IMG/VR virus record: IMGVR_UViG_3300007790_000056
Coordinates: 1 to 36,178 of that record
DNA length: 36,178 nt
Origin: a virus
Strand: one strand, 5' to 3'
Shown here piece by piece: positions 15,471 to 28,180 of the stretch. The translations under genes and the position numbers were made by a program. Below the pieces are notes generated by a model. That model was not told the origin of the DNA and made no database searches. It saw only the letters and a list, made by a program, of their open reading frames with translations. Positions within the stretch are counted from its first letter, which is position 1, and each line of letters starts with the position of its first letter.

Positions 15471-15492
15471 AGGGGCTACGGAAATAGCCCTT
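15471..15492 (+). promoter_or_regulatory. CGGAAA-loop hairpin H1 (holin-endolysin spacer)
   Basis: AGGGGCTA-CGGAAA-TAGCCCTT forms 6 Watson-Crick pairs, then a G-U wobble and a further A-T pair. It lies in a 123-nt non-coding gap. Confidence 0.6.
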
Positions 15493-15543
15493 GTGTATCG
15501 TCTGAATAGGCGACCAAATCAAAAAGAAAAGGAATGATTTATA

Positions 15544-16545
15544 ATGGCAGGAAAAGTTACCTTAACCATTGGCAAGGACAAAGTAGAAGTAGAAAACAAA
15601 GTTTATGTATCAGCGGGTCATGGTGATAAAGTTTCAGGTGCGAATGGACATATTAAAGAGCATGAGGAAGCAGTAAAGGTTGCTAAACGTGTAACGGAAA
15701 TCATGACGGATAAACACTCATATTTCTACGTTGAGAAAACAGCGAAAACACAAAATCAGAACCTAGCGAACATCGTTAAGGCACACAACGCTAAGAAATG
15801 TGTTCTAAACGTATCTGTCCACTTCAATTCTTCAGCAGGTGCTACAGCTACAGGGACAGAAGTATTGTATTTCAACAAGAAACAACTAGCTTCTGACGTA
15901 TCGAAAGCCATTGCCAATTCACTAGGCTTGAAAGATAGAGGGGCAAAGGAACGTCAAGAATTATACTTCCTACGCAATACAGCAACGCCTGCTATCTTAT
16001 TAGAAATCTGCTTCGTATCGACTAAGAAGGACACAGAAGCCTATAAGAAGAATTTTGAAGCAATGTGTCAGGCTATCGCTAAGGAATCACTAGAATACAT
16101 CGGGGAAAAGAAACCCAACACAGATTCTAAGCCGTCTAGCAAGCCTTCTAAGCCTTCTGAAAGCCATAAAGATACGAATGACGCTATTCATACGGTGATT
16201 AAAGGAGAAACGCTGTACAAGGTTGCTAAAGAGCATGGTATTAGCGTAGAAGTATTAGCTTCGCTGAATAACATTTCAGACCCTTCTAAGATTCAGGTGG
16301 GCGATAAGCTAGTCATTACCAATAAGCGTTATCTAACGAACGCTAAACAAGTAAAAGTGCTGAAAGGTTTCAAGACGTACAAGGACGTGGAAATCACTAC
16401 AGCCAACGAAGCAGGCAACGCTAAGAAGGGTGATACCTTCACAATCACAGATATTGTTCGCACGAAAGCAGGTACACCCCGCTTCAAGACAGATTGTGGT
16501 GTCTACATCACAGCTAACAAAGAATTTGTAGAACGTATCAAGTAA
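15544..16545 (+). CDS. Endolysin: N-acetylmuramoyl-L-alanine amidase (amidase_3) + LysM + SH3b-like C-terminus
   Basis: Amidase_3 motifs are present (SAGHGDKVSGANG, VSVHFNS, GTEVLY, PAILLEICFVS). The LysM stretch is HTVIKGETLYKVAKEHGISVEVLASLNNI...VGDKLVI. A Ser/Pro/Lys linker joins the domains. Confidence 0.95.
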   Translation: MAGKVTLTIGKDKVEVENKVYVSAGHGDKVSGANGHIKEHEEAVKVAKRVTEIMTDKHSYFYVEKTAKTQNQNLANIVKAHNAKKCVLNVSVHFNSSAGATATGTEVLYFNKKQLASDVSKAIANSLGLKDRGAKERQELYFLRNTATPAILLEICFVSTKKDTEAYKKNFEAMCQAIAKESLEYIGEKKPNTDSKPSSKPSKPSESHKDTNDAIHTVIKGETLYKVAKEHGISVEVLASLNNISDPSKIQVGDKLVITNKRYLTNAKQVKVLKGFKTYKDVEITTANEAGNAKKGDTFTITDIVRTKAGTPRFKTDCGVYITANKEFVERIK

Positions 16546-16562
16546 AAACTAGACAAAACAAA

Positions 16563-16590
16563 AACGCCCCTGTTATAATAAAAGGGCGTT
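16563..16590. terminator. Convergent terminator between the endolysin gene and the minus-strand small membrane gene
   Basis: AACGCCC-14 nt-GGGCGTT. The U-tract is on the minus-strand side (plus-strand ACAAAACAAAAA at 16551-16562). On the plus side the stem is followed by hairpin H2. Confidence 0.6.
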
Positions 16591-16604
16591 AGCGGAAACT
16601 GACG
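16587..16604 (+). promoter_or_regulatory. CGGAAA-loop hairpin H2
   Basis: CGTTAG-CGGAAA-CTGACG (6 bp, one G-U). Its 5' arm overlaps the 3' arm of the preceding terminator. Confidence 0.55.
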
Positions 16605-16640
16605 TGAGATTACTCATATTCTTTTTCGATTACCACATTT

Positions 16641-16844
16641 CTATTTTCGAGTTGTTTTTGAGCCTTTCTTTTGGAAGGCTCTTTTTCTTTTTATGTGACG
16701 AATCCAATCTTCGCCACAAATACCACAAAACAGTATAGCGATAACAATTAACACACCGTTGCCACCAAAGAAATGACCCACCACACTGAATCCTACAACG
16801 TAAACTACTAGCCAAAATAACGATTTTAACAATGATTTTAACAT
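16641..16844 (-). CDS. Small two-TM membrane protein (holin-like topology), late-cassette driven
   Basis: ATG 16844 is preceded by CAGGGGGAA at 7-nt spacing. The 67-aa product has two hydrophobic helices and a basic C-terminus (RHIKRKRAFQKKGSKTTRK). The track's longer start at 16889 lacks an RBS. Confidence 0.7.
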   Translation of the reverse strand: MLKSLLKSLFWLVVYVVGFSVVGHFFGGNGVLIVIAILFCGICGEDWIRHIKRKRAFQKKGSKTTRK

Positions 16845-16914
16845 ATTAAATTCCCCCTGTTTTTTCTTCTTAATAATAATATAACCCAACCACCGAAACA
16901 GTGTTCAATAGTTA

Positions 16915-16979
16915 GGTAAATTTGTAAACATTTTTACTTGTTAATGTATACCTGTAAACTTGTAAACATTTTTACATAC
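16915..16979 (-). promoter_or_regulatory. Late regulatory cassette, inverted copy (2 x 27-nt units, 11-nt spacer)
   Basis: The reverse complement reads GTAAAAATGTTTACAAGTTTACA-ggtatacatta-ACAAGTAAAAATGTTTACAAATTTACC. This is about 90% identical to 28181-28245. Confidence 0.8.
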
Positions 16980-17339
16980 TTACAACAATTGACGCTCGAT
17001 ACATTCTACATAATACTTCAGGATAGCGTAGCGTACATTGCTATGCACACGAAGCGGTCTTTCCAATACCTGCTGACTGAATAGCCATTCCAAAGTGACG
17101 TAGCTTTCACAACCTTTAGAGCCGTACACCTTGCTTGGGGGTACGTTAAGTAACTTCAGCATATCGTCTAAGTTGTATCTAGGGAAGTTATTTGATACCA
17201 ATGTACGGACTGTCCCTTCACCTATGAATAGCGTTAGAGAATCTTTGTATTCCCCTTCTGATAAGTGAAGCATTTTGTCCACGACCCCTTTCAACTTGGC
17301 TCTTTCTTCTGCTGATAAATCATTGATGAATTCTTCCAT
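16980..17339 (-). CDS. Hypothetical protein (119 aa)
   Basis: ATG 17339 is preceded by AGAAAGAGGG. The track's TTG start at 17369 is unsupported. No family was recognised. Confidence 0.7.
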   Translation of the reverse strand: MEEFINDLSAEERAKLKGVVDKMLHLSEGEYKDSLTLFIGEGTVRTLVSNNFPRYNLDDMLKLLNVPPSKVYGSKGCESYVTLEWLFSQQVLERPLRVHSNVRYAILKYYVECIERQLL

Positions 17340-17363
17340 GTTAAACCCTCTTTCTGATAATTG

Positions 17364-17392
17364 TTGCAATACACAGTATACCTTGATATACT
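17364..17392 (+). promoter_or_regulatory. SigA-type promoter on the + strand inside the minus-strand module
   Basis: TTGCAA (17364-69), a 17-nt spacer, then TATACT (17387-92). Confidence 0.55.
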
Positions 17393-17407
17393 AATTCATG
17401 TGGTGGC

Positions 17408-17423
17408 GGTAGCGGAAACTACC
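17408..17423 (+). promoter_or_regulatory. CGGAAA-loop hairpin H3
   Basis: GGTAG-CGGAAA-CTACC, a perfect 5-bp stem. Confidence 0.5.
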
Positions 17424-17508
17424 AACCCCTCATTTTATGTGTATTAGTTTTGAATAGTTGGTTATGAGTAGTAACAGAACATTGACAACTGAATAGATGT
17501 GCCTAGCA

Positions 17509-17547
17509 AAGAGGACTACCATTGTCGGTGTAGTCCTCTTTTTTTGT
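17509..17547 (+). terminator. Strong intrinsic terminator, + strand oriented
   Basis: AAGAGGACTAC-10 nt-GTAGTCCTCTT is a perfect 11-bp stem followed by TTTTTTTG. On the minus strand the stem has no U-tract. Confidence 0.8.
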
Positions 17548-17552
17548 TGCCC

Positions 17553-17687
17553 TTATTTAAAGAAACGTGTCATTGCCTTACCAACCGCACGATTGTAGAT
17601 ACGTTTACCGACTGTACCATTCTTAACTGCTGATACGTCACCTAAAAACTTAGCAAGACCATATAAGAAACTTCTAAACTTACTCAC
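17553..17687 (-). CDS. Possible small basic protein (44 aa, GTG start)
   Basis: GTG 17687 overlaps the stop of 17680..18357 and is preceded by AAGGGGGG. The product is (M)SKFRSFLYGLAKFLGDVSAVKNGTVGKRIYNRAVGKAMTRFFK. It is below the track's length cutoff. Confidence 0.3.
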   Translation of the reverse strand: MSKFRSFLYGLAKFLGDVSAVKNGTVGKRIYNRAVGKAMTRFFK

Positions 17688-18357
17688 TTACCTTACCCCC
17701 TTTTGGAAATTGCACCACGTTATTAGCCTTTGGTGGCTCGTTTAAGTGGTCAATCATCATTTCCGCTAGACTTTTACCTAAAGTAAATTCAGATAGCTTA
17801 GAAACGATTCTAATGCTTTTGAACATGATGTCATTAATCAATTCACTTCGATACTCTAGCAGGAATTCCCTGAAATATTCCCCGTTCTTCATTTTGTCAT
17901 CATATCCAATGCCAATCTTCGCTAGGTACGCTTCCACCGCTTCCATTGTCGTGTGGTAGTCCTTTGTACAACCCGTCTTGTCAATCCACTTGTCAGGTGG
18001 GAATGTTTGTAGCAGTTGGTTCATGGTCATTTCAGAAAGCATATCAAGCATAAGCGACACGTTGTTGAAGTCCTTTTCAATGTTTTCGTCATTGATTGGG
18101 TTACGGCTTTCTACAAGCACCATACAGCGGATATAGAACATAGACTTTGATTCTATCTTACCACTATAAAAAATGTTAGGTAAAATCGCTTCGCTATTGC
18201 GTGTAATGAAGCCTAACGCACGTTTATATTGTTCATGGCGTTTAACTGCACGTGTACCACGTTCTGCTGTTTCAATGATTGGTAGAACCCCTTCTTTGTA
18301 GTCACGTTTTAAACGCTTGTGAAGCCCTTCTGTGAATGACAGTGTATTGTTTTTCAT
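17680..18357 (-). CDS. Hypothetical early protein (225 aa)
   Basis: The conserved initiation region ATGAAATGAGGAATTCAAA precedes the ATG. No family was recognised. Confidence 0.8.
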   Translation of the reverse strand: MKNNTLSFTEGLHKRLKRDYKEGVLPIIETAERGTRAVKRHEQYKRALGFITRNSEAILPNIFYSGKIESKSMFYIRCMVLVESRNPINDENIEKDFNNVSLMLDMLSEMTMNQLLQTFPPDKWIDKTGCTKDYHTTMEAVEAYLAKIGIGYDDKMKNGEYFREFLLEYRSELINDIMFKSIRIVSKLSEFTLGKSLAEMMIDHLNEPPKANNVVQFPKGGKVSE

Positions 18358-18410
18358 TTTGAATTCCTCATTTCATGTAGTTTGAATGGCGGTCTGATTG
18401 ACCATAATGA
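18358..18410 (-). repeat. Early intergenic repeat, copy 1 (conserved initiation region + GGTCTGATTGACC element)
   Basis: About 90% identical to 19592-19645. It lies directly upstream of ATG 18357. Confidence 0.85.
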
Positions 18411-18474
18411 AGGGGCGTGTGTAGAACCCCTTTAAATGCCTTCTAAGCGATTTTACGGCTTATAGGTTGTCTTG

Positions 18475-19242
18475 CTATTGGAACATTAAATCATAGGTTG
18501 TAGACGTGTAACCATGCTCTTTTAACAGCTTGTACAGGAAGTATTCACCTTTGTTCGTCCACTTCATGCTCTTATACGTGTGACCGTTGTTTGCTTGCCC
18601 TGTAGGTGTAACAGTGTAGCCCTTACCTTCGTACTTGGCGTATAACTTCCAATTCCCGCTACGGTAATATTGGACACCCAACTGATTAAGCAGGCTATTC
18701 ATCTTAATACCTGACATACCGTAGTTGGTAGCAATTTGTGTGATTGTGTACAGCTTGTCAGTGTTCCCTGTAAGAACGTCAAGGGCTTCTGCTTTAGGTG
18801 CAACAATTGCCAATTCCTTCTGTACCGCTTCCTTTTCTTCCACAGCGATTAGAAGGTGCTGTAGGGCTTCTTTGTAAGAAGTAGGTAGTGCAGGCTGTTT
18901 TGGTTGCTGAAGCACTTCTTCCATAGCGTTGAAGCGTTCAATGTACTTAACAGCGAATCCTGTACCGTCAATACCTGTCATTCGATTACCGTATAACTCA
19001 CAACCCTTCTTCGTTAGTAAGAACATTGGGTAGTTTTGATTATTTTGCGGGTGTAAGTAAGTTGATTCTAGGAAATAAGGGGTATGCTCAACATTGAGCA
19101 GACCCAAATCAGCCTTAACCTTTTCAATATCACGCATAACATTTCTATGTTCACGTCCGACCATTTCCGCCACGTCTAGGCTTGTAATCATCGGTTGTTT
19201 GCTTTCTTTTGCTGTAGTGATTGGTGTGTATAATTCTGTCAT
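18475..19242 (-). CDS. Antirepressor-like regulator (Rha N-terminal domain + KilAC/ANT C-terminal domain)
   Basis: The N-terminus ITSLDVAEMVGREHRNVMRDIEK is typical of the Rha family. The C-terminus LYTITQIATNYGMSGIKMNSLLNQLGVQY...W.LYAKY is typical of KilAC. Confidence 0.8.
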   Translation of the reverse strand: MTELYTPITTAKESKQPMITSLDVAEMVGREHRNVMRDIEKVKADLGLLNVEHTPYFLESTYLHPQNNQNYPMFLLTKKGCELYGNRMTGIDGTGFAVKYIERFNAMEEVLQQPKQPALPTSYKEALQHLLIAVEEKEAVQKELAIVAPKAEALDVLTGNTDKLYTITQIATNYGMSGIKMNSLLNQLGVQYYRSGNWKLYAKYEGKGYTVTPTGQANNGHTYKSMKWTNKGEYFLYKLLKEHGYTSTTYDLMFQ

Positions 19243-19276
19243 TATAGATTCCTCATTTCATATAGTTTAGTTTTTG

Positions 19277-19591
19277 TTAGTCCATATTGGCGATAGCTTC
19301 ATGTAACTTCTCGACAAAAGCCTTTTTATCAGCATTTTCGAAAAGATTGATAAAGAGAATTGGCGGTACTAGGTAAGAGCGGTATTCTTCCCCGTTCTCG
19401 TCAGTACAGTTTAGTGTGAACACTGTCTGCTTCTCTTTGTTGTAGTTAAGGGCTTCTTCATACGAAGCAGATTTAAAGCGTAATGTAATACCGTAAGTTG
19501 CTTCTGTTTTTTCGATGTGTTCTTTCATGGCTTTCACTGTTTCCTGCACATAAGTAGTCATAGCCTTTTCAGTTGATACTTTTTTCTTCAT
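19277..19591 (-). CDS. Hypothetical early protein (104 aa)
   Basis: It has the conserved initiation region. It shows weak similarity to the neighbouring 19691..20308 product. Confidence 0.8.
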   Translation of the reverse strand: MKKKVSTEKAMTTYVQETVKAMKEHIEKTEATYGITLRFKSASYEEALNYNKEKQTVFTLNCTDENGEEYRSYLVPPILFINLFENADKKAFVEKLHEAIANMD

Positions 19592-19645
19592 TTTGAATTC
19601 CTCATTTCATATAGTTTTTGAATGGCGGTCAATTGACCATAATAG
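19592..19645 (-). repeat. Early intergenic repeat, copy 2 (conserved initiation region + perfect palindrome GGTCAATTGACC at 19627-38)
   Basis: It lies directly upstream of ATG 19591. Confidence 0.85.
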
Positions 19646-19690
19646 GGGGTGGCTCAAGATTGAGCAGACCCCGCAAAAGGTACTACCTAA

Positions 19691-20308
19691 TTAAAGATAG
19701 TGTTTGATTGTTTGTTCTACTGCATAGCATAGGGCGTGATAACTGATATTCTTTTTAGCAGTTGGTGATAGGTGGTGCGGAATATCAACGTTCATTTCAA
19801 TAGTCACCCCGTCCTTAGTGAAGTCCACGAACAGGCGGTTATCAGGAACGAAATGACTGTAGTAAGGCTTACAACGGAAGTCTTTAGGCTTCAAATTGCT
19901 TGTATGCTCTTTCAACGTAGCTGTAAGCCCACTTACGAGCATTTCATTCGTCTTTCTGATTACATCACTGTAAACTAGCAATTCTTCAGGTAGGTTCGAC
20001 ATCATGAACACGTCCGTTAGTGCCTTGTTAAGTGCAAACATTAGCTTGTCACACGTTTCCTTTGAATCAGCGTGGCGCAAGAAGTAAGTAACAGGGCTAA
20101 GAGTGCCAACGTAGTCATATCCTTCCTCATTCGTGAAAGTGATAGCACATACAACCTTGTCAAAACCATTAATAACCGCTTTAGCTTCTACAAATTCCAT
20201 TTCTTCAACTTTTGAAAGTTCCTTCGTATTCTTAGCGATTAGCTGTGCTTCTTCCACCGCCATAGTTACAGTAGTTTCGATGTGTGATTCAGTTAAAATG
20301 TTTGTCAT
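19691..20308 (-). CDS. Hypothetical early protein (205 aa)
   Basis: ATG 20308 (MTNILTESH) is preceded by GGAGGAA at 7 nt. The track's extension to 20407 crosses a terminator and a promoter. Confidence 0.75.
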   Translation of the reverse strand: MTNILTESHIETTVTMAVEEAQLIAKNTKELSKVEEMEFVEAKAVINGFDKVVCAITFTNEEGYDYVGTLSPVTYFLRHADSKETCDKLMFALNKALTDVFMMSNLPEELLVYSDVIRKTNEMLVSGLTATLKEHTSNLKPKDFRCKPYYSHFVPDNRLFVDFTKDGVTIEMNVDIPHHLSPTAKKNISYHALCYAVEQTIKHYL

Positions 20309-20356
20309 AGTGAATTCCTCCGATAATATAATAGTATTTGTTGACATTACAATGTT

Positions 20357-20386
20357 AAAAAGAAGAAGGGTCAACTTACGACCCTT
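20357..20386 (-). terminator. Promoter-proximal intrinsic terminator in the leader of 19691..20308
   Basis: On the minus strand, AAGGGTC-gtaagtt-GACCCTT (7 bp) is followed by CTTCTTTTTAA. Confidence 0.6.
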
Positions 20387-20441
20387 TAAAATTCCCGCAC
20401 AGACCAATGGCGAGCAAGTAAAGTTATGAGCAATAACCTTA

Positions 20442-20453
20442 CTGTAATTACAT
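20442..20453. promoter_or_regulatory. Operator-like palindrome CTGTAATTACAT, copy 1
   Basis: A perfect 10-bp palindrome, TGTAATTACA, abuts the -10 and covers the predicted start site. Confidence 0.6.
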
Positions 20454-20481
20454 TATAACATACTTTTTAATGCTGTGCGAA
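20452..20481 (-). promoter_or_regulatory. Internal early promoter (extended -10)
   Basis: The minus strand reads TTCGCA-18 nt-TATAAT with TGT immediately upstream of the -10. It is followed by the palindrome TGTAATTACA. Confidence 0.6.
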
Positions 20482-20510
20482 TAATTGTTGACATTACGAG
20501 TAAAAAGGTA

Positions 20511-20861
20511 CTAAAGCCCTATGCGGTTTAAATCTTTCACTGTAGATAGAACACGCATGATATTAGGTAGGTATAGACCATGCTTGGCTAATTTGTGCGC
20601 TAGTTGACCAAGAGTGGCAGGGGTAGCTTCAGGATTAGCCACCGCTTCGTTGATTTCCAATAGGATAGATTGGACTGAATCAAGTGGACGAAAACCTGTA
20701 AACTTAGCACCACGTCCCTGAAGTTCATAGAAGCACTCTAGGCAAGACTTGGCGAATTTTGCGTGAATAGGGTTATCCATATTGATAACGTCCCCTAATT
20801 GGTCTAATTCGTTGCTGAAATAGGTTGTTAAGATGTGTGATTCTTGTTCTGTTAGTTTCAT
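20511..20861 (-). CDS. Hypothetical early protein (116 aa)
   Basis: ORF with a 4-nt start/stop overlap with the upstream gene. No family was recognised. Confidence 0.8.
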   Translation of the reverse strand: MKLTEQESHILTTYFSNELDQLGDVINMDNPIHAKFAKSCLECFYELQGRGAKFTGFRPLDSVQSILLEINEAVANPEATPATLGQLAHKLAKHGLYLPNIMRVLSTVKDLNRIGL

Positions 20862-21322
20862 TGCTCTTGTCCTCCTTTTAGATATGTGCCTGACAGCTTG
20901 TAGTAGCCTTCCTTAGCCACCCAAGATATAAAGTAGTTGTTCACTTCTACATCACCCGTAGGAAGCACCCTAGCCCCTATCATGGTGTTTAAATCAGCCC
21001 CGTAGTCGTCAGCCACCGCTTCAAGGATAGCAAACAAGTGTTCTGATACCACTAAACATGGCTCATATTCGAAGCGGTCTACAGAAGCTACATCTAATTC
21101 TTCTTCTACTGATTCACATACTTCAGCGAATATTGCACGTCTGAATGTAGGGTCACTTTCTGCGGGTACAGCCTGAATGCTTTCAAGCTGTTCTGTAAGC
21201 TGTTCACGTTCCTTAGAAAGCGTCATAGCTTCCTCATTGGATAAACCACCTTCAAAGAGAAGGTAGTCTTGTAACTGTGCTGTGATGTGGTTGATACGGT
21301 TTTGAATGTTAGTTGCTGTCAT
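20858..21322 (-). CDS. Hypothetical acidic early protein (154 aa)
   Basis: ATG 21322 gives 8-nt spacing from AAGGGGGAA. ATG 21328 is too close to that RBS. Confidence 0.75.
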   Translation of the reverse strand: MTATNIQNRINHITAQLQDYLLFEGGLSNEEAMTLSKEREQLTEQLESIQAVPAESDPTFRRAIFAEVCESVEEELDVASVDRFEYEPCLVVSEHLFAILEAVADDYGADLNTMIGARVLPTGDVEVNNYFISWVAKEGYYKLSGTYLKGGQEQ

Positions 21323-21335
21323 TGTCATTTCCCCC

Positions 21336-22627: not shown

Positions 22628-22657
22628 TTGACATTACATTAAATAATGTGTTATAAT
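22628..22657 (+). promoter_or_regulatory. Rightward early promoter (consensus -35, extended consensus -10)
   Basis: TTGACA (22628-33), an 18-nt spacer ending in TGT, then TATAAT (22652-57). Confidence 0.8.
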
Positions 22658-22667
22658 GTAATTACAG
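22656..22667. promoter_or_regulatory. Operator-like palindrome ATGTAATTACAG, copy 3
   Basis: TGTAATTACA abuts the -10 of the rightward promoter. Confidence 0.6.
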
Positions 22668-22692
22668 ATAACAAAGAAAGAGGGAATCGGAA

Positions 22693-24558
22693 ATGAGTAA
22701 TCAAACAGTGGCAATTCACATTGACGGTGTAAGGCACAGCATTAAGCCTAAGACCAACCTAAGCAAAAAGACTTCACGTGTCCAAGAGGTGACACCCGAA
22801 CAATTCAAGAATGTACTGACTAATGGTATGACGGTATGCCTAGCAGAATTCACTACAGCATATCCTTGGGCTTCAGAAGCGGAATTCGTACAACAACAAT
22901 ACTTCATGTTAGACTTCGATAACTACGAGGTTATAGACAAGGAGAAGGTACGATTCACAGATAGCCGTTACCTAAGTTTTGAAGAAGCTAAGAACAACCG
23001 CTTCCTGCAAGAGAACGCTATCTTTATGTATAAGACGTTTTCAGACGCAGAAGGACATGACCGCTTTCGTGTAGCTTTCAAGTTGGATAAGCCTATGACA
23101 GAAGTAGTTGAAGCCTTAAAGGTGAACATGGCACTTCTAAAGCACTTCCCCAACGCAGACGCAAACTGTAAAGATATTAAGCGTATTTCATTCGGTGGTA
23201 AGAGCGAACATCACATATTCGATTATAACAACGTCCTGAAACACGCTTCATTGGACACAGAACAGCTTGAATTGAATCAGAAGCAAGTAGCAAGCAATTC
23301 ATTCGAAAACAGCGCAGAACTAACGACAAACAGCGATACACACGAAATCGTGTCGATGATTGCTAATGGTGAGATTACAGAACTACAGGAAAAGCTAAAC
23401 ATTGAAGGCGTTGTCTACCCTTCAGTGTACGTGGTGAAAGCACAGTTGAAGAAGATTAATCTTGCTGAAGTATTCAATGTTCCGCTTGGTATTAACTTCT
23501 GTGACATATTCCATGAAGAAAGCAACCCTTCAGCACGTATTTACAAGAATGACAATGGCGAATACGTTTACACGTGTTTCTCCGCTTCGAATAAATATGC
23601 AGGGGACATTATCAGTGTTATCCAACGTATTAGAGATTGCCAATACCATGAAGCGATTGAGTTTCTAATGTGTATGTTCGACATCACTATTAAGGTGAAC
23701 GAGGACGTACAACGTATTCACAACCAACTAGACTTGGTTATCGGCTTGTTAGAGGACGTGAACACGCTTAAAAAGGAATATCCTGACGTACACAAGGTAT
23801 TCATTAACCCTAAGAACCGTTCTTATTGCAGACAGATTCTACAACTATTCAGAAATCATACATTTATCGACTACAAGACAGGCGAACAGCAGGTAGCTAT
23901 CACAATGTCAGTGGACACGATTATGTATATGCTTAGTTGCAACAGCAGACAGACAATTAATGACGCTTTAATCAAACTTCGTACAATCGGCTTGATTAAG
24001 TCACTAGACGATACAGAAGTACCACAGCACGTATTAGTTAAAATGCGTGATAGCCAACTGAAACGTAATATTGACGTTGGACGCTTCACCAACCGAACAA
24101 ATATGCACTCATGCAGTATTCAAAACAATATGCTTGGTGTCATTTCTAAAGGGTGCGGTGAATATCGTGAAAAACGTATCACAATCGCTACAATGAGTAA
24201 TAAAGGTATTGGCTTGGCGTTAGGTGAGGAAAAGAGAAAAGAAACATTCGTACATGACCAAAACAAGCAAGCTGTATCACCGAAAGTGCAGAAACAAGTT
24301 GATTCATTGATTAAATACGCTGATAAGTTTATCGAAAAGAAAGGCTACGCTTGTGACGCAGATTTAATTAACAAATTCAATCAGGGCTTTAAGCTAGGGT
24401 CTAAAGCGAAAGCTAAACGTATCTACGATGAACTACGAAGCGGAATGATTGCACAAGGTAATTTTAAAGCCATTCAAAATAACAAGGAGAATCGCCAAGA
24501 ACATAACATACAAGAACGTATGCAAGGCGGTCATTTCTATATCAAAGGAGAGAAATAA
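22693..24558 (+). CDS. Replication initiator / primase-like protein (AEP-like N-terminus + degenerate CHC2 zinc-finger-like segment)
   Basis: FMLDFDN is a DxD-type motif, and GHDRFRVAFKL is also present. CDIFHEESNPSARIY...YTCFS resembles the DnaG CHC2 finger (CPFHxEKTPSF...YxCFGCG) with the last Cys pair lost. At 621 aa it is the only obvious replication enzyme. Confidence 0.6.
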   Translation: MSNQTVAIHIDGVRHSIKPKTNLSKKTSRVQEVTPEQFKNVLTNGMTVCLAEFTTAYPWASEAEFVQQQYFMLDFDNYEVIDKEKVRFTDSRYLSFEEAKNNRFLQENAIFMYKTFSDAEGHDRFRVAFKLDKPMTEVVEALKVNMALLKHFPNADANCKDIKRISFGGKSEHHIFDYNNVLKHASLDTEQLELNQKQVASNSFENSAELTTNSDTHEIVSMIANGEITELQEKLNIEGVVYPSVYVVKAQLKKINLAEVFNVPLGINFCDIFHEESNPSARIYKNDNGEYVYTCFSASNKYAGDIISVIQRIRDCQYHEAIEFLMCMFDITIKVNEDVQRIHNQLDLVIGLLEDVNTLKKEYPDVHKVFINPKNRSYCRQILQLFRNHTFIDYKTGEQQVAITMSVDTIMYMLSCNSRQTINDALIKLRTIGLIKSLDDTEVPQHVLVKMRDSQLKRNIDVGRFTNRTNMHSCSIQNNMLGVISKGCGEYREKRITIATMSNKGIGLALGEEKRKETFVHDQNKQAVSPKVQKQVDSLIKYADKFIEKKGYACDADLINKFNQGFKLGSKAKAKRIYDELRSGMIAQGNFKAIQNNKENRQEHNIQERMQGGHFYIKGEK

Positions 24559-24559
24559 T

Positions 24560-24901
24560 ATGTATTTATCAAAACTAAACAAAAAAGACGTATTCTTCAA
24601 AATGGAGAACATCAAAAAAGAGGAATTCTATCTTATTTCAGCCTATAACGAAGTGACCGAAAAGGTAGTGAAGGTTTACGGTATGACGGGTGAAGAAGTG
24701 CAGGAATTGCTATTGGACGCTGAAGATTCTGAATTACTGATTGACTGCTTAAGACAATACAATCCTGACGTGTACTTGGTGGTGTTCGACATATTCAAGG
24801 ACGATGAAACATTCTATAGCTTCACCAATGGCGACATTGACCACTTCTTCGGTATCATCAACGGCTATAATGAGTTGATTGACAAGGAAAAAGTAATGTG
24901 A
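24560..24901 (+). CDS. Hypothetical acidic protein (113 aa)
   Basis: ATG 24560 follows AAAGGAGAG and the primase stop. The track's start at 24449 overlaps the primase gene without an RBS. Confidence 0.75.
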   Translation: MYLSKLNKKDVFFKMENIKKEEFYLISAYNEVTEKVVKVYGMTGEEVQELLLDAEDSELLIDCLRQYNPDVYLVVFDIFKDDETFYSFTNGDIDHFFGIINGYNELIDKEKVM

Positions 24902-24908
24902 TAAGTAA

Positions 24909-24938
24909 TTCGCACAAATGGTCAAAATATGTTATAAT
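24909..24938 (+). promoter_or_regulatory. Middle promoter, paralogous to the one at 20452-20481
   Basis: TTCGCACA-N-TATGTTATAAT: -35 TTCGCA, an 18-nt spacer, extended -10. Confidence 0.55.
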
Positions 24939-24965
24939 AAGGTATAAAGATTTTAGTGGTAATAG

Positions 24966-25000
24966 AGATAGGCTCAATCTTGGGCTTATCTATTATTTTT
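24966..25000 (+). terminator. Promoter-proximal terminator-like hairpin
   Basis: AGATAGGC-10 nt-GCTTATCT (8 bp, one G-U) followed by ATTATTTTT. It lies about 20 nt downstream of the predicted start site. Confidence 0.5.
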
Positions 25001-25043
25001 AAAATAGTAATGTTAAACGTTGTAATTATAGGAGGAATAAAAA

Positions 25044-25316
25044 ATGTACATTTCAGTTAGGAAAAGAAAGAACCGCTTCGGTGAATTAGGTTTAACGCTT
25101 GGTCTTGCGGAAACGTTTAGAGAAAACGGAGAAATCAAGAATAGAGCGGTCTACGTTGGGACGATTATTGCAGAAGATTTAGTAGCAGGAGAAACACGTA
25201 AACTAGACCGCCAAGTGAAAATGCGCTTAAATGAAGAACAACAGGCTATCTTTTATAGTAAGTTGCCTGATGTAGTAAGCCGTTTCAAATATCTTAAAGA
25301 GAAAGCGGGTGAATAG
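25044..25316 (+). CDS. Hypothetical protein (90 aa)
   Basis: RBS TAGGAGGAA precedes the ATG. No family was recognised. Confidence 0.8.
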   Translation: MYISVRKRKNRFGELGLTLGLAETFRENGEIKNRAVYVGTIIAEDLVAGETRKLDRQVKMRLNEEQQAIFYSKLPDVVSRFKYLKEKAGE

Positions 25317-25317
25317 C

Positions 25318-25524
25318 ATGATGTTTGAAGGTAGCACGAAAGGCATTTCAACAGTAGATAAAATAGAGCAGTCGTACAAGTCGTATTACACAGGACGTGG
25401 TAGCGTCACAATCCAATTAAACCGCACCTTTAAGCAGGAGATTGAAATGCAGAACCGATTATCGTACTTCAGACGTACAGTTGGTAATGAAGCTAGACGC
25501 AGGTTATTAAGATTACTGAATTAG
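25318..25524 (+). CDS. Hypothetical basic protein (68 aa)
   Basis: ATG 25318 lies just after the upstream stop. The alternative is GTG 25309. Confidence 0.6.
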   Translation: MMFEGSTKGISTVDKIEQSYKSYYTGRGSVTIQLNRTFKQEIEMQNRLSYFRRTVGNEARRRLLRLLN

Positions 25525-25541
25525 GAAAGGGTGTAGCAAGA

Positions 25542-25712
25542 ATGTTTTATATTCCATTAGCTATATGTTTAATGCTTATTGTAGTGCTTATTTGTATCAA
25601 GGTAATTGTTGAATCAGATTTTACGACAGTTAAGACGGTCAAGATTCTTATTTTAACCACCGTAGCGATTGCTATATTAATCGCCTGCTTAACACACTAT
25701 AGCCTGCACTAA
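25542..25712 (+). CDS. Small two-TM membrane protein (56 aa), below the track cutoff
   Basis: ATG 25542 follows GGAAAGGGTG. The product is MFYIPLAICLMLIVVLICIKVIVESDFTTVKTVKILILTTVAIAILIACLTHYSLH. A terminator follows. Confidence 0.5.
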   Translation: MFYIPLAICLMLIVVLICIKVIVESDFTTVKTVKILILTTVAIAILIACLTHYSLH

Positions 25713-25723
25713 TATTTAAACAG

Positions 25724-25746
25724 CCCCTTTCAGAGGGGTTTTAGTG
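25724..25746 (+). terminator. Intrinsic terminator
   Basis: CCCCT-ttcag-AGGGG followed by TTTTAGTG. Confidence 0.65.
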
Positions 25747-25771
25747 CGTTTAAGGAAAGGATTGAAGGAGA

Positions 25772-26230
25772 ATGACAAAGGTATTAGCTATTGACCAATC
25801 GTTACTATCAAGCGGTTGGGCGGTGCTTACAGAACACGAATTGATTGATAGAGGGAAAATCAAGTCAGGTTATAAAGAGGACTTCAGGAACATACAGAAG
25901 CAGTTAGAAGCCCTTGTAGACGTTTACGAAGCACATAAGCCTGACGTGGTTATCTTAGAGCAAACAACGTACCAACGAAACGCAGACACCTTTAGAAAGC
26001 TATCAAAGCTATTAGGGGTCATTGAATTATTCTTCTATCAGCAGGGTGTACCGACAGTGATTTATTACCCTAGCACTTGGAGAAGTAAAGTGAAGATTAA
26101 AGGAAAGAAACGAGCCGAGCAGAAGTTAGAAGCTAAGAAGCGGGTTCGTGAAGATTATCAGATTAACGCTTCAGAAGATGAATCAGAAGCAATTCTACTA
26201 GGACTAGCCTACTTAGAAACCAACCAATAG
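25772..26230 (+). CDS. RuvC-like Holliday junction resolvase
   Basis: The N-terminus KVLAIDQSLLSSGWAV carries a catalytic Asp. VILEQT carries a Glu, and there is a C-terminal acidic ASEDESEA segment. At 152 aa it matches the phage RuvC-like resolvases of low-GC Gram-positive phages. Confidence 0.8.
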   Translation: MTKVLAIDQSLLSSGWAVLTEHELIDRGKIKSGYKEDFRNIQKQLEALVDVYEAHKPDVVILEQTTYQRNADTFRKLSKLLGVIELFFYQQGVPTVIYYPSTWRSKVKIKGKKRAEQKLEAKKRVREDYQINASEDESEAILLGLAYLETNQ

Positions 26231-26245
26231 AAAGGAAAATGCAAA

Positions 26246-26809
26246 ATGAATACACATGAAATCGTTAAATTAAATACAATCGAGGGTCTATCACACCTGA
26301 AGGATTATTACCACATATCGAACACAGGAAAGATTTATTCAACGTACCGCCAACCTGAAGGGGAACTAAAAGAGATTGCCCCGTATTTAGTAGGTGCGGG
26401 TTATCAGCAGGTGCAATTAGGAACGAAGCAGGGTGGTTTTAAGAAGCTATACGTCCACCGCTTAGTTGGCATGGTCTTTGTCGAAGGATATGCAGAAGGA
26501 TTAGTCATTAATCACAAGGACGAAAACAAGCTGAATAATCATTACCTGAATCTTGAATGGGTGACGCAAAAGGAAAATATAAACTACGGCACACGTACAA
26601 AACGACAAAGCAAGTCATGTCAGAAGCCATTAGAAGCGATTGACCCACTGACGGGTATTACGTGCCTAGTATTTGAATCAGTAAGAGAAGCAATGGACAA
26701 GGGCTTTTCAGCTAATGGCATTTCAGAAGCGTCTAGGGGTGAATGGTGCAGTCATTTAAAACATGGTGGCACAGACGTATATCGTGGCTACAAATGGCGT
26801 TACGTTTAG
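26246..26809 (+). CDS. Free-standing HNH homing endonuclease (NUMOD4-like N-terminus, HNH_3 core, C-terminal DNA-binding repeat)
   Basis: Motifs are YYHISNTGKIYS, VHRLVGMVF...INHKDENKLNNHYLNLEWVTQKEN, and C-terminal FESVREA...GISEASRG...YRGYKWRY. Confidence 0.85.
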   Translation: MNTHEIVKLNTIEGLSHLKDYYHISNTGKIYSTYRQPEGELKEIAPYLVGAGYQQVQLGTKQGGFKKLYVHRLVGMVFVEGYAEGLVINHKDENKLNNHYLNLEWVTQKENINYGTRTKRQSKSCQKPLEAIDPLTGITCLVFESVREAMDKGFSANGISEASRGEWCSHLKHGGTDVYRGYKWRYV

Positions 26810-26906
26810 TTGGGGGCAACCCCTGACATACATAAGATAAGTTAGCTTATATTATTAGTAAGAGATATATCATAACCAATAGAGAAAAAGAAAAGGGGAA
26901 TTGTAA

Positions 26907-27569
26907 ATGAATGAAGAATACACGTTAGAGGGTTTAGAAGCTATGCTATTGAACTACCACAAGTTAGAGGGGAACGATTACAAGATTGAAGTAGACCGCT
27001 TCTTAGCAAGCGATTTAATCACATATGACATGGCAATTTATATCAGTATGCACTATGCGCTAGAATTAACAGACTTACAGATTGTTCGACTATTAGGTGA
27101 AGGTTATTCGCTCTTGGATATGAAAGAAGCAAGAGAAGAAGTCCTAGAGTGCCTAGAAGCCTTTCTAAGAGGTTTCAAGACGAAGAAGGTAAAATACTAT
27201 AAAGAATTCAATGCACCTGATATAGAGGGTCATTTAAAGCTATTGAAAGCGGGTGTCATTAGTCCAATGTATATCAGTTTCAGTGTAACAAAGGAAGTGA
27301 ATGAACGACTTGCCCAAATGGGTGATGATAACTCTAAGGTGCTTATCGAACAGGAAGCAGGCTATTTCAGACCGAACCTATCTGAAGAAAACTATTGGGA
27401 CGAGAAACCGCTTCGAATTTACAAGACAAATGACTTCGGTCATAAGACAGCAGAAAACGATGAATTCTATAAGCGTGACATGGCGAATAGGGTTACACCT
27501 ACCTATGACGTGGACGTGACCATGTATAATGCAGGACTAGCGAAAAAGGACAGACGAAAGGGGAAATAA
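26907..27569 (+). CDS. Hypothetical protein; possible sigma-region-4/ArpU-like HTH (weak)
   Basis: ISMHYALELTDLQIVRLLGEGYSLLDMKEAREEVLECL loosely fits a sigma r4-type helix-turn-helix pattern. It lies two genes upstream of the late operon. Confidence 0.3.
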   Translation: MNEEYTLEGLEAMLLNYHKLEGNDYKIEVDRFLASDLITYDMAIYISMHYALELTDLQIVRLLGEGYSLLDMKEAREEVLECLEAFLRGFKTKKVKYYKEFNAPDIEGHLKLLKAGVISPMYISFSVTKEVNERLAQMGDDNSKVLIEQEAGYFRPNLSEENYWDEKPLRIYKTNDFGHKTAENDEFYKRDMANRVTPTYDVDVTMYNAGLAKKDRRKGK

Positions 27570-27572
27570 AGC

Positions 27573-28043
27573 ATGGGTATTATTAGAGCATTTGACGAAC
27601 TACCATACGAAGAAGAAGTAAGATTGTATCAGGAACTACAGGACGACTTGCTGAATATCTTTGGCAATGATTCCTATAGTGATGTGGAAGCCCTTAGAGG
27701 TGACTTCCAAGCCCTTATGCTTGACCCTTATTATTCGTACCTGCTTGATAACTATGTACTTAATAACAGGGAATATTATATAGATGTCAATGAGTTATTC
27801 AAGTCTATTACACCGAACCGTTGGAAAGTATGCAAAGTCTGTGGGAAACCATTCTTAGATTACACCACATACAATAAGTCTAAGATATGCTACAGCGCTA
27901 TCTATAAACGATACAGCTTACGCAAGGGGGAATTCTTTACTTCAGCAGGTGAGAAATCAGAATGTTATATGAAGTACAAGAGCAAAGGGTGGCATAAATA
28001 CAATTCGGAAAAGCAAGTTGAAAGACTAATAAGTGAAGGGTAG
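27573..28043 (+). CDS. Hypothetical Cys-containing (CxxC) protein; candidate late regulator by position
   Basis: It contains WKVCKVCGKPF ... C ... C. It is the last gene before the late cassette. Its last 12 codons are encoded by box C. Confidence 0.3.
   Translation: MGIIRAFDELPYEEEVRLYQELQDDLLNIFGNDSYSDVEALRGDFQALMLDPYYSYLLDNYVLNNREYYIDVNELFKSITPNRWKVCKVCGKPFLDYTTYNKSKICYSAIYKRYSLRKGEFFTSAGEKSECYMKYKSKGWHKYNSEKQVERLISEG
28003..28036 (+). repeat. Late-module box, copy C (34 nt identical to copy D)
   Basis: ATTCGGAAAAGCAAGTTGAAAGACTAATAAGTGA encodes NSEKQVERLISE at the C-terminus of 27573..28043. Confidence 0.95.
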
Positions 28044-28062
28044 CGGAAACTGCCTTTCACTT
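28031..28062 (+). promoter_or_regulatory. CGGAAA-loop hairpin H4 (13-bp stem)
   Basis: AAGTGAAGGGTAG-CGGAAA-CTGCCTTTCACTT (2 G-U pairs). It includes the stop codon of 27573..28043 and the 3' end of box C. Confidence 0.7.
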
Positions 28063-28173: not shown

Positions 28174-28180
28174 ATTATAT

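What the first reader, a model, noticed from the sequence alone, without database searches (positions are those of the whole stretch)
15471..28062. A family of four hairpins shares an invariant CGGAAA hexaloop with covarying stems
The four hairpins are H1 15471-92 (AGGGGCTA/TAGCCCTT), H2 16587-604 (CGTTAG/CTGACG), H3 17408-23 (GGTAG/CTACC) and H4 28031-62 (AAGTGAAGGGTAG/CTGCCTTTCACTT, 13 bp). The loop is identical while the stems differ but stay complementary. All four are non-coding and on the + strand. The other CGGAAA hexamers I spotted by eye (inside ORFs) have no flanking complementarity. An invariant loop with covarying stems is the signature of a hairpin read by a protein or RNA; compare the lambda N/boxB GNRA-like loops. 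The positions are suggestive. H1 lies in the holin-endolysin spacer. H2 overlaps the post-endolysin terminator arm, so the two structures are mutually exclusive. H3 lies in the candidate sRNA. H4 lies just before the terminator that separates the middle and late genes.
Basis: partly seen in the sequence, partly recalled or inferred. Interest (0 to 1): 0.65.

Follow-up and report, generated by a model that had tools for sequence, protein, structure and literature searches.

The report
Phage RNA hairpins sharing one loop
A soil phage carries four stem-loops on one strand that share the loop CGGAAA; they are real, conserved in its only close relative, and sit where genes or transcripts end, but nothing computed here shows what they do.

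Summary
Of the 20 CGGAAA hexamers in the window, only these four have flanking stems (10, 7, 5 and 13 bp); the other 16 have 2 bp or fewer. No shuffle reached their summed stem length (35, against a maximum of 23 in 300 shuffles).

Corrections to the finding:
- H2, H3 and H4 share an 11-mer, TAGCGGAAACT, not just the loop. Only H1 shares the loop alone.
- The 5' arm of H4 is coding, and the TAG stop codon lies in the stem.
- The hairpin that competes with H2 is the terminator of the opposite strand.

Evidence from other genomes:
- In the one close relative (a 34.9-kb Logan contig) all four copies are kept. The core shows 0 differences in 44 positions, the flanks 38 in 247.
- That relative has one compensatory pair change, and G·U pairs replaced by Watson-Crick pairs or the reverse.
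- G·U pairs make the stems good only on the + strand, which points to RNA.
- The distant Bacillus phage Deep-Purple has one intergenic copy. Eleven other distantly related loci have none.

There is no Rfam match, no boxA and no recognisable N-like protein.

Best reading (about 0.4): + strand RNA stem-loops that mark transcript and cistron boundaries, with an apex that something recognises. The function is untested. The rival reading is plain terminator or stabiliser hairpins of common descent.

The parts
15469..15494 (+). H1. Stem GCAGGGGCTA / TAGCCCTTGT (10 bp, 2 G·U), loop CGGAAA at 15479-15484. It lies in the spacer between the holin gene (14866-15420) and the endolysin gene (15544-16545).
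   Evidence: present in the minimum-free-energy fold. Flanking genes. Conserved in the relative with a 2-nt insertion that keeps the pairing.
16586..16605 (+). H2. Stem GCGTTAG / CTGACGT (7 bp, 2 G·U), loop at 16593-16598. It lies 41 nt after the endolysin stop codon.
   Evidence: Identical in the relative. Absent from the fold of the 3' UTR; present if the RNA starts at about 16585.
17408..17423 (+). H3. Stem GGTAG / CTACC (5 bp), loop at 17413-17418. It is the 5' stem-loop of a predicted RNA of about 150 nt.
   Evidence: In the relative the fifth pair changes from G-C to G·U, and the 3' flank diverges.
28031..28062 (+). H4. A 13-bp stem, loop at 28044-28049. The 5' arm encodes the end of ORF 27573-28043, and the TAG stop (28041-28043) is in the stem.
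   Evidence: Flagged as terminator-like. In the relative the stem is 11 bp, with one compensatory change (G-C to U-A) and one U·G to U-A.
16550..16579 (+). Promoter-like site TAGACA-18-TGtTATAAT. The predicted start, about 16586, coincides with the first base of H2.
   Evidence: 11 of 12 matches, extended -10. Identical in the relative. The transcription start is inferred, not shown.
17364..17392 (+). Promoter-like site TTGCAA-17-TGaTATACT. The predicted start, about 17399, is 8 nt before H3.
   Evidence: In the relative both hexamers are intact while the spacer carries 4 substitutions.
16660..16695 (+). Intrinsic terminator GAGCCTTTC-TTTT-GGAAGGCTC followed by a T-run, 55 nt after H2.
17510..17546 (+). 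Intrinsic terminator AGAGGACTAC / GTAGTCCTCT followed by T7, 87 nt after H3.
28106..28178 (+). Large terminator structure (GGGCGGTAGG ... CCTATCGCCC, then TTTTATTAT) between the early and late genes, 44 nt after H4.
   Evidence: the region 28020-28185 folds with z = -5.0.
28069..28086 (+). Second small hairpin after H4 (GTGATGA-TTAC-TCATTGC). It shares GATTACTCAT with the sequence after H2 (16604-16617).
16563..16590 (-). Minus-strand terminator of the convergent small membrane-protein gene. Its arm overlaps the 5' arm of H2 at 16586-16590.
   Evidence: The T-run lies on the minus strand.
11954..11976 (+). Canonical terminator GTAGGG-GAAA-CCCTGC followed by T7. It resembles H4 in sequence (GTAG.GGAAAC..CTGC), and the TAG stop of ORF 10356-11957 is likewise in its 5' arm.
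   Evidence: Identical in the relative apart from a T-run one base shorter.
27989..28036 (+). Copy C of a four-copy element of about 30 nt (GGAAARGCAAGTTRAAAGACTAAT) that runs directly into the 5' arm of H4.
   Evidence: (family D1). Copies A and B follow terminators and are themselves followed by small hairpins.

Best explanation
H1-H4 are stem-loops formed in + strand RNA. They punctuate transcription units of a cos/HNH siphovirus of about 36 kb.

- H4 closes the early operon at its stop codon, just ahead of the early/late terminator.
- H2 follows the last late gene (endolysin) and may also start a short RNA.
- H3 starts a predicted small RNA of about 150 nt.
- H1 sits between the holin and endolysin genes.

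Each presents the same apex: a G-C (in H1, A-U) closing pair under the loop C-GGAA-A. This could be read as a GNRA-like GGAA turn closed by a C·A mismatch.

I infer that this apex is a common recognition handle for one trans-acting factor, either host or phage, that sets the fate of the RNA at these boundaries. The fate could be pausing or termination versus read-through at the terminator 45-90 nt downstream, or protection of the transcript end.

Shown: the hairpins, their strand bias, the conservation of the core, the changes that preserve pairing, and their position relative to genes and predicted terminators. Inferred: the transcription starts, the existence of a factor, and the regulatory outcome.
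For: - Only these four of the 20 CGGAAA hexamers have stems, and their summed stem length exceeds all 300 shuffles.
- The stems contain G·U pairs that would be C·A mismatches on the other strand. On the minus strand H2 and H4 drop below 5 bp.
- All four are kept at syntenic positions in the only close relative. The core shows 0 differences in 44 positions, the flanks 38 in 247 (p = 0.0025).
- The relative has a double compensatory change in H4, G·U pairs exchanged with Watson-Crick pairs in H3 and H4, and a pairing-preserving indel in H1.
- H1 shares only the loop, on an unrelated 10-bp stem. This argues that the loop itself matters, not just a copied 11-mer.
- Canonical terminators in the window mostly use other loops, although the one at 11954-11976 has a related apex, GTAGGG-GAAA-CCCTGC.
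- H2, H3 and H4 each precede a + strand terminator.
- H2 and H3 lie 0-8 nt after the predicted starts of strong extended -10 promoters. For H3, the hexamers are conserved in the relative while the spacer varies.
- An intergenic GTTAG-CGGAAA-CTAAC hairpin occurs on the gene-sense strand of the distant Bacillus phage Deep-Purple, about 190 nt upstream of a terminator-like hairpin.
Against: - There is only one close relative, so true covariation rests on a single double change.
- The core was defined after the copies had been seen.
- H2 is not in the minimum-free-energy fold of the endolysin 3' UTR.
- The motif is absent from eleven distantly related loci (L086-L094: two with a ~52%-identical terminase, nine with an ORF 27573 homologue). 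No phage protein co-occurs uniquely with it.
- No candidate binder was recognised by Pfam or PHROGs.
- A canonical terminator in the same genome (11954-11976) is a close sequence relative of H4.
- A B. cereus prophage uses a G-CGGAAA-C hairpin as an ordinary terminator.
- In that prophage lineage an orthologous hairpin has CGGAAA in some members and TGAAAG in others.
- H4 itself passes a lenient terminator test.
- There are no expression data for any of the predicted transcripts.
Confidence: 0.4

Rival explanations
1. These are ordinary structural hairpins: weak or decayed intrinsic terminators, barriers to 3'-exonucleases, or 5' stabilisers. They descend from one hairpin module by duplication. 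The shared apex reflects common ancestry and perhaps a favourable loop fold, not recognition by a factor.
For: - H2, H3 and H4 share 11-13 identical bases. H2 and H4 also share GATTACTCAT and a second hairpin downstream, which suggests paralogous modules.
- The canonical terminator at 11954-11976 (GTAGGG-GAAA-CCCTGC followed by T7) resembles H4, down to the TAG stop in its 5' arm.
- H4 is called terminator-like.
- Four of the five copies, counting Deep-Purple, lie 0-51 nt after a + strand stop codon.
- A B. cereus prophage has a true terminator with this loop.
- The loop is not conserved among orthologues in phages MY192 and A16R4.
Against: - H1 has an unrelated stem but the identical loop.
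- H1, H2 and H3 lack a U-tract.
- Loops of purely structural hairpins usually drift faster than stems. Here the apex shows 0 changes in 44 positions while the distal stems and flanks changed.
- The same 16-mer, with one change, recurs intergenically in Deep-Purple, which shares only three weakly similar proteins with the window.
Confidence: 0.3
2. The motif is a DNA-level signal read in single-stranded or cruciform DNA. It could be a priming or initiation site for the 621-aa replication protein that carries a DnaG-type zinc ribbon, or a strand-specific nicking or packaging signal.
For: - All copies lie on one strand.
- The phage encodes a 621-aa protein with a CHC2 zinc finger, two HNH nucleases and a RuvC-like resolvase.
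- Deep-Purple, which has one copy, shares the 621-aa protein.
Against: - L086 also encodes a homologue of the 621-aa protein, and no motif was found in the 17.9 kb of it that is held.
- Exchange between G·U and Watson-Crick pairs is more typical of RNA.
- The positions track gene ends, promoters and terminators rather than any replication landmark.
- The GC skew simply follows the direction of transcription.
Confidence: 0.1
3. The hairpins are the shared 5' modules of sibling small RNAs (H2, H3 and possibly H4 units). Their downstream seeds pair with the translation-initiation regions of early genes. Alternatively, the CGGAAA loops kiss UUUCCG loops of antisense transcripts.
For: - The layout promoter, hairpin, terminator is predicted at H2 and H3.
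- GAUUACUCAU, which follows H2 and H4, is complementary to AUGAGUAAUC at the start of ORF 22693. That initiation region ranks first of 40 for both RNAs ([pair I19], 101).
- The H2 unit is antisense to the 3' end of a convergent gene for a small hydrophobic protein.
Against: - The relative keeps the TTACTCAT part of this sequence after H2 and H4 (all of GATTACTCAT after H4), but its orthologous gene starts ATGAAAGCAA, so the complementarity is not conserved.
- The leftward initiation regions are not the best predicted targets of the H3 RNA.
- H1 and H4 lie inside or at the end of mRNAs, not at the start of small RNAs.
- The minus-strand version of H2 does not fold.
Confidence: 0.1
4. The family is a chance coincidence of a repeated word with local palindromes.
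For: - About ten other 11-mers occur three times in the window without any obvious function.
- Four-member same-loop families arise in 2.7% of shuffles, and one (AAGGCT) is present on the real minus strand.
- Pattern hits in IMG/VR occur at about the chance rate and are mostly coding.
Against: - The summed stem length was reached in 0 of 300 shuffles.
- All copies are non-coding or lie at a stop codon, while only 8.8% of the genome is non-coding.
- All four are conserved in the relative, with a core that is cleaner than its flanks.
Confidence: 0.05

Closest known systems
Lambda-type nut sites (boxB hairpin bound by the N protein)
   Same: A short RNA hairpin with a conserved purine-rich, GNRA-like loop on variable stems. 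There are several copies per genome, all in the sense of transcription and upstream of terminators that separate temporal gene classes.
   Different: - The loop is a hexaloop, CGGAAA, not the GAAAA or GACAA pentaloop.
- No boxA lies nearby.
- No N-like protein was recognised.
- There are four sites, placed at operon ends and cistron junctions rather than one just after each early promoter.
- The host is Gram-positive, a group in which no N system is known (my own knowledge).
Intrinsic (Rho-independent) terminators and 3'-end stabiliser hairpins
   Same: G+C-rich stems just after stop codons. H4 passes a lenient terminator scan. The hairpins are close in sequence to a true terminator at 11954-11976, and to a terminator with a CGGAAA loop in a B. 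cereus prophage.
   Different: H1, H2 and H3 have no U-tract. The loop is conserved more strictly than a purely structural role requires. Most of the true terminators found in the window use other loops.
5' stabiliser stem-loops of Bacillus mRNAs and small RNAs (for example the ermC, aprE and phage SP82 leaders; my own knowledge)
   Same: H2 and H3 lie 0-8 nt from predicted transcription starts. A hairpin there would block 5'-end-dependent decay.
   Different: The starts are only predicted. H1 and H4 are internal to mRNAs or at their 3' ends. Known stabilisers do not share a conserved loop.
HK022 put RNAs and other cis-acting antiterminator RNAs
   Same: At H2 and H4, two hairpins in tandem lie between a possible start and a terminator.
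   Different: There is no sequence or Rfam similarity. At H2 and H3, read-through would enter only antisense territory. Nothing has been tested.

Membership tests
Lambda N / boxB nut site | A 5-bp stem with a GNRA-like pentaloop (GAAAA or GACAA) | tested here: not met
   The loop has six bases, CGGAAA, in all copies. A GGAA turn closed by a C·A mismatch is conceivable but was not shown.
Lambda N / boxB nut site | A boxA element (CGCTCTTA-like) a few bases upstream of the hairpin | tested here: not met
   There are 17 matches with at most 1 mismatch, fewer than the 24.3 expected. None lies within 300 nt of H1, H2 or H3; the nearest to H4 is more than 900 nt away.
Lambda N / boxB nut site | A phage-encoded small protein with an arginine-rich motif that binds the hairpin | tested here: inconclusive
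   No Pfam or PHROG hit to N-like proteins. Two small basic early ORFs exist: 25044-25316 (N-terminal VRKRKNRF) and 25309-25524 (C-terminal EARRRLLRLLN). Binding cannot be tested here.
Lambda N / boxB nut site | A site transcribed early, upstream of terminators whose read-through gives the next gene class | tested here: inconclusive
   H4 lies 44 nt before the early/late terminator. H2 and H3 precede terminators, but only antisense territory follows them. H1 has no terminator before the endolysin gene.
Intrinsic terminator | A G+C-rich hairpin followed directly by a U-tract (at least 5 U in 8) | tested here: inconclusive
   H4 passes (CTTTCTGT). H1, H2 and H3 are not called on the + strand.
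Any curated RNA family (Rfam 15) | A score at or above the family's gathering threshold | tested here: not met
   No hits at gathering thresholds. With E-values up to 5, only sub-threshold chance-level hits appear, and none covers a CGGAAA hairpin.
Solitary CRISPR repeat / RNA anti-CRISPR | A significant match to a CRISPR repeat family | tested here: not met
   CRISPR-DR27 matches 28054-28079 with 26.3 bits, against a gathering score of 35, E = 3.3. There is no tracrRNA hit. The host's repeats are unknown.
5' stabiliser stem-loop | A hairpin within a few nucleotides of a mapped 5' end, with an effect on RNA half-life | not testable with these tools
   Only consensus promoter predictions place the starts at about 16586 and about 17399.

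The most novel reading that the evidence does not exclude
The CGGAAA hairpins are the RNA recognition sites of a so far undescribed read-through (processive antitermination) or RNA-fate system in a Bacillales siphovirus. One factor, loaded at hairpins placed just before each + strand terminator, would govern the early-to-late switch at 28106-28178 and the output of two short RNAs next to the lysis genes.
Probability: 0.12. Interest if true: 0.7.

Novelty: new variant of a known kind. Interest (0 to 1): 0.42.

Why it matters
If the apex is read by a factor, this would be an RNA-hairpin-based control of transcript boundaries in a Gram-positive phage lineage with almost no characterised relatives. 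Its large terminase subunit is at most 53% identical to any protein outside its own 90% cluster. Hairpin-based control of this kind is known mainly from lambdoid phages of Gram-negative hosts. It would also give a simple handle, a 6-nt loop, for testing how this phage times its late genes and lysis. If the hairpins are only terminator or stabiliser modules, the finding is ordinary genome punctuation. It would then be useful mainly for drawing the transcription map.

Tried and rejected
1. **Pattern scans of IMG/VR.** I scanned for GGTAGCGGAAACTRCC, GTTAGCGGAAACTRAC and GGCTACGGAAATAGCC. They gave 81, 28 and 19 stretches, about the chance rate. Most are coding, many are redundant, and none is related to the window at the DNA or protein level.
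2. **Close relatives.** None was found in INPHARED by megablast, nor in IMG/VR with the neighbouring ORF or the large terminase subunit. The 5.8-billion-protein search gave only one close relative.
3. **Link between the motif and the ORF 27573 zinc-ribbon family.** Rejected: nine distantly related loci that encode a homologue (L086, L088-L094) lack the motif, and only Deep-Purple has a copy.
4. **Antisense pairing of GAUUACUCAU (after H2 and H4) with the start of ORF 22693.** It is the top-ranked target but is not conserved in the relative. Rejected as a conserved mechanism.
5. **Resemblance of the D1 repeat to a Cas9 tracrRNA anti-repeat.** This was recalled from memory. There is no Rfam tracrRNA hit even at E-values up to 5. 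Dropped.
6. **ECF-sigma reading (GGAAAC-N16-CGT) and SPO1 late-promoter reading of the motif.** The spacing and the second element are absent, judged by inspecting.
7. **Pseudoknot between the loop and downstream UUUCUG or UUUUCG.** It is sterically implausible at H4 and inconsistent among the copies.
8. **The hit of the covariance model in phage C30-2 and in L093.** It falls in the Walker-A coding sequence of ParA, so it is chance.

Full report
**What the window is**

The first and last 91 bases are identical, so this is a circular assembly of about 36,087 bp. It comes from a soil metagenome contig. The gene content is that of a cos-type siphovirus:
- tail genes and a 1545-aa tape-measure protein
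- a holin (14866-15420) and an amidase/LysM endolysin (15544-16545)
- a leftward block from 16641 to 21800 that includes an Ant/Rha antirepressor
- a rightward early block from 22477 to 28043, with a 621-aa protein carrying a DnaG-type CHC2 zinc finger, a RuvC-like resolvase and an HNH_3 nuclease
- then HNH, small terminase, large terminase, portal, protease and capsid genes

No tRNA gene and no Rfam family was found. The endolysin's relatives are from Rummeliibacillus, Kurthia and Lysinibacillus. The host is therefore probably a member of the Bacillales. This is an inference.

**Checking the observation**

I extended the pairing outward from every CGGAAA, allowing G·U. The four sites give stems of 10, 7, 5 and 13 bp. 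The other sixteen CGGAAA hexamers, on either strand, give 0-2 bp.

The hexamer itself is not enriched: 20 copies against 16.2 expected. Among all plus-strand hexaloop hairpins with at least 5 bp, CGGAAA is the largest family. A family of four turns up in 8 of 300 dinucleotide shuffles, so size alone is not remarkable. A four-member AAGGCT family even exists on the real minus strand. The summed stem length of 35, however, was never approached; the shuffle maximum was 23.

Only 8.8% of the genome is non-coding. The plus strand has 12 strong non-coding hairpins, and three of them carry this loop.

Several details need correcting:
- H2, H3 and H4 share the 11-mer TAGCGGAAACT. It has 3 exact copies and no others even with one mismatch allowed, against 0.49 expected. 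Their three loop-proximal pairs are therefore identical, not covarying.
- H1 (CTA-CGGAAA-TAG) shares only the loop.
- Three-copy 11-mers are not rare in this genome: about ten look accidental. The word count alone proves little.
- The 5' arm of H4 is coding, and the TAG stop of ORF 27573-28043 sits in the stem.
- The hairpin that competes with H2 (16563-16590) has its T-run on the minus strand. It terminates the convergent small membrane-protein gene. The plus-strand terminator is at 16660-16695.
- In the endolysin 3' UTR, the minimum-free-energy fold uses that competitor rather than H2. H2 forms only if the RNA starts near 16585.
- H1, H3 and H4 are present in the predicted folds of their surroundings.

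**Relatives**

Megablast against 50,697 phage records found nothing. The nearest isolate terminases are 51.5% identical or less.

The large protein database holds one close relative, a 34,946-bp Logan contig (SRR24204752). Its ORF 27573 homologue is 81% identical and its endolysin 94% identical. All four hairpins are at syntenic positions there:
- H2 is identical.
- H1 has a 2-nt insertion that turns a G·U pair into G-C, with a bulge.
- The fifth pair of H3 goes from G-C to G·U, while its 3' flank diverges sharply.
- H4 keeps 11 of its 13 pairs. It has one double compensatory change (G-C to U-A), although the 5' arm is coding (Ser to Ile). It also has one U·G changed to U-A.

I then compared the 11-nt core (three closing pairs plus the loop) with 30 nt on each side. 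The cores show 0 differences in 44 positions. The flanks show 38 in 247 aligned columns (Fisher p = 0.0025). Two cautions apply. The core was defined after inspection, and a few of the flank differences are end gaps.

The stems contain G·U pairs. On the minus strand H2 and H4 fall below 5 contiguous pairs. That asymmetry, together with the exchange between G·U and Watson-Crick pairs, is what one expects of structure selected in plus-strand RNA.

I built a model from nine copies. It recovers only the four window copies, the four copies in the relative and one in Bacillus phage Deep-Purple. It finds nothing real elsewhere:
- two loci whose terminase is about 52% identical (L086, L087)
- phage C30-2, where the only hit is the Walker-A coding sequence of ParA
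- six prophages that encode homologues of ORF 27573

The pair statistics on the paralogue alignment are circular, because the sequences were picked for being hairpins. I do not use them as evidence.

**The Deep-Purple copy**

GTTAG-CGGAAA-CTAAC lies at 4352-4367 of Deep-Purple. It is intergenic, on the sense strand, 25 nt after the gp06 stop codon. A terminator-like hairpin lies about 190 nt downstream. The hairpin is present in the predicted fold.

Deep-Purple shares only three weakly similar early proteins with the window: the 621-aa protein, ORF 26907 and ORF 27573. I estimate the chance of the exact 11-mer with paired flanks in an intergenic region, over the roughly 220 kb of distant relatives examined, at 1% or less. 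That estimate is post hoc.

Two further scans of IMG/VR turned up a B. cereus-group prophage family (L095, L105, L115). It has a non-coding 10-bp hairpin, GGACAGTTAG-CGGAAA-CTAACTGTCC. In L095 there is also a canonical terminator, AAGGTGGTTG-CGGAAA-CAACCGCCTT followed by a T-run. However, the orthologous hairpin in phages MY192 and A16R4 has the loop TGAAAG. In that lineage the loop is therefore not invariant. These hits were also ascertained by the search pattern itself.

**Context in the window**

- H4 is the first of three structures at the end of the early operon. It is followed by a small hairpin (28069-28086) and by a large terminator (28106-28178). The whole region folds with z = -5.0.
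- H2 is followed by a similar small hairpin that shares GATTACTCAT, and by the terminator at 16660-16695.
- H3 is followed by a long hairpin and the terminator at 17510-17546.
- Consensus scans place strong extended -10 promoters so that transcription would start at about 16586, the first base of H2, and at about 17399, 8 nt before H3.
- For the H3 promoter, both hexamers are intact in the relative while four spacer positions differ. These starts remain predictions.
- H4 is fused to copy C of a four-copy 30-nt element (family D1). Copies A and B of that element sit between a terminator and the next late gene, and each is followed by its own small hairpin. The hairpin after copy A keeps its GGCAA loop with a compensatory stem change in the relative.
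- The canonical terminator at 11954-11976 (GTAGGG-GAAA-CCCTGC followed by T7) is a near relative of H4. It even has the TAG stop codon in its 5' arm.

**Interpretation**

The pattern is a single strand, G·U usage, distal stems that change while staying paired, and an apex cleaner than its flanks. This is best explained by plus-strand RNA stem-loops whose apex matters. H1 is the key copy here, because it has the same loop on an unrelated stem.

Their positions are at transcript or cistron boundaries. Three of the four lie just upstream of terminators. I therefore favour, at about 0.4, a common recognition handle that sets RNA fate at these boundaries. That fate could be termination versus read-through, or protection of the transcript end.

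The boxB/N analogy describes what this could work like. Membership fails on the tested features: the loop has six bases rather than five, no boxA is present, and no N-like protein was recognised. Two small basic early ORFs are the only untested phage candidates.

The main rival, at about 0.3, is that these are ordinary terminator or stabiliser hairpins of common descent. It is supported by the sibling terminator at 11954, by H4 passing a terminator scan, by the true terminator with a CGGAAA loop in L095, and by the variable loop in MY192.

A DNA-level signal, a small-RNA seed or kissing-loop network, and chance are less likely. The reasons are given with each rival. In particular, the attractive complementarity between GAUUACUCAU and the start of ORF 22693 is not conserved in the relative.

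**Verdict**

This is a real family of RNA stem-loops specific to this phage lineage, and it is not in Rfam. I class it as a new variant of a known kind: conserved-apex regulatory or punctuation hairpins in phage transcripts. The evidence for hairpin formation on the plus strand is moderately good. The evidence for a conserved apex is suggestive but thin, because there is only one close relative.

Noticed in passing
window 1-91 and 36088-36178: An exact 91-nt terminal direct repeat. The window is a circularly assembled genome of about 36,087 bp.
   Followed up: partly
window 6144-6191, 11964-12011, 27989-28036, 32753-32800 (+): A four-copy element of about 30 nt, T(T/C)GGAAARGCAAGTTRAAAGACTAAT. 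Copies A and B lie between an intrinsic terminator and the next late gene, and each is followed by a small hairpin. Copies C and D are embedded in coding sequence (both translated SEKQVERLISE), at the end of ORF 27573 and near the end of the portal gene. The element is 100% conserved in the relative at A and B. It may be a late promoter or a processing module.
   Followed up: partly
window 16916-16988 and 28172-28244: A 73-nt inverted repeat, 86% complementary. Each arm holds two copies of ACAAGTAAAAATGTTTACAAGATTACA. One arm lies upstream of the HNH/terminase late genes. The other lies upstream of the minus-strand small membrane-protein gene. They may be co-regulated promoters. A TerL-related contig (L086) has different direct repeats containing GTAAACA at the equivalent place.
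   Followed up: partly
window 16586-16695 (+) and 16641-16845 (-): A predicted + strand RNA of about 110 nt (promoter at 16550-16579, terminator at 16660-16695) is antisense to the 3' end of a convergent gene. That gene encodes a protein of about 67 aa with hydrophobic segments and a basic tail. The layout resembles type I toxin-antitoxin pairs of Bacillus prophages (my own knowledge). The protein gene is only about 65% conserved in the relative, while the intergenic RNA region is about 98% conserved.
   Followed up: partly
window 17399-17546 (+): A candidate small RNA of about 150 nt. It has a conserved promoter, a 5' hairpin (H3), a C-rich stretch CCAACCCCUCAUUUUAUG that resembles an anti-Shine-Dalgarno sequence, and a strong terminator. 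By eye, it could pair with the repeated leaders of the leftward genes, but those are not its best predicted targets.
   Followed up: partly
window 18354-18379, 19239-19264, 19588-19613, 21797-21822: Four leftward genes share a nearly identical 26-nt translation-initiation region. On the minus strand it reads TATATGAAATGAGGAATTCAAAATGA.
   Followed up: no
window 28054-28079 (+): A sub-threshold Rfam hit to CRISPR-DR27: 23 of 25 consensus positions, 26.3 bits against a gathering score of 35, E = 3.3. It covers the 3' arm of H4 and the start of the next hairpin. It is probably chance. It would be worth re-checking against the host's CRISPR repeats if the host becomes known.
   Followed up: partly
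window 28073-28099 and 22677-22703: A 27-nt inverted copy (78% complementary) of the ribosome-binding site and start codon of ORF 22693 lies just after H4. On the minus strand it gives a strong Shine-Dalgarno sequence and an 8-codon ORF (MSNHHRKK). The complementarity to ORF 22693 is not conserved in the relative.
   Followed up: yes
window 6127-6150 and L084 about 582-605: The terminator after the tape-measure gene shows clear covariation between the two phages: CCCCTTCCTCTTGGTTGGGG against CCCCCTTAATATTAAGGGGG. The element that follows it is identical in both.
   Followed up: no
window 27573-28043; L085 35759-36244 (-); L088 5400-5879; L086 3437-3895; L089-L094: ORF 27573 belongs to a small family with four invariant cysteines (CxxC...C...C). 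It is found in Deep-Purple (gp40), C30-2, Enterococcus prophages and metagenomic contigs, usually next to homologues of ORF 26907 and the 621-aa zinc-ribbon protein. Its function is unknown (PHROG 38776).
   Followed up: partly
window 16641-22656: No integrase, CI-type repressor or partition gene was recognised. The leftward block encodes an Ant/Rha antirepressor and several acidic proteins of unknown function. Whether the phage is temperate or virulent is unclear.
   Followed up: no
L095 947-968 (-) and 1518-1539 (+); L142 2622-2648: A B. cereus-group prophage has two unrelated 10-bp hairpins with the CGGAAA loop within 600 nt. One is a true terminator. The orthologue of the other in phages MY192 and A16R4 has the loop TGAAAG and a C·A mismatch in the stem.
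   Followed up: partly
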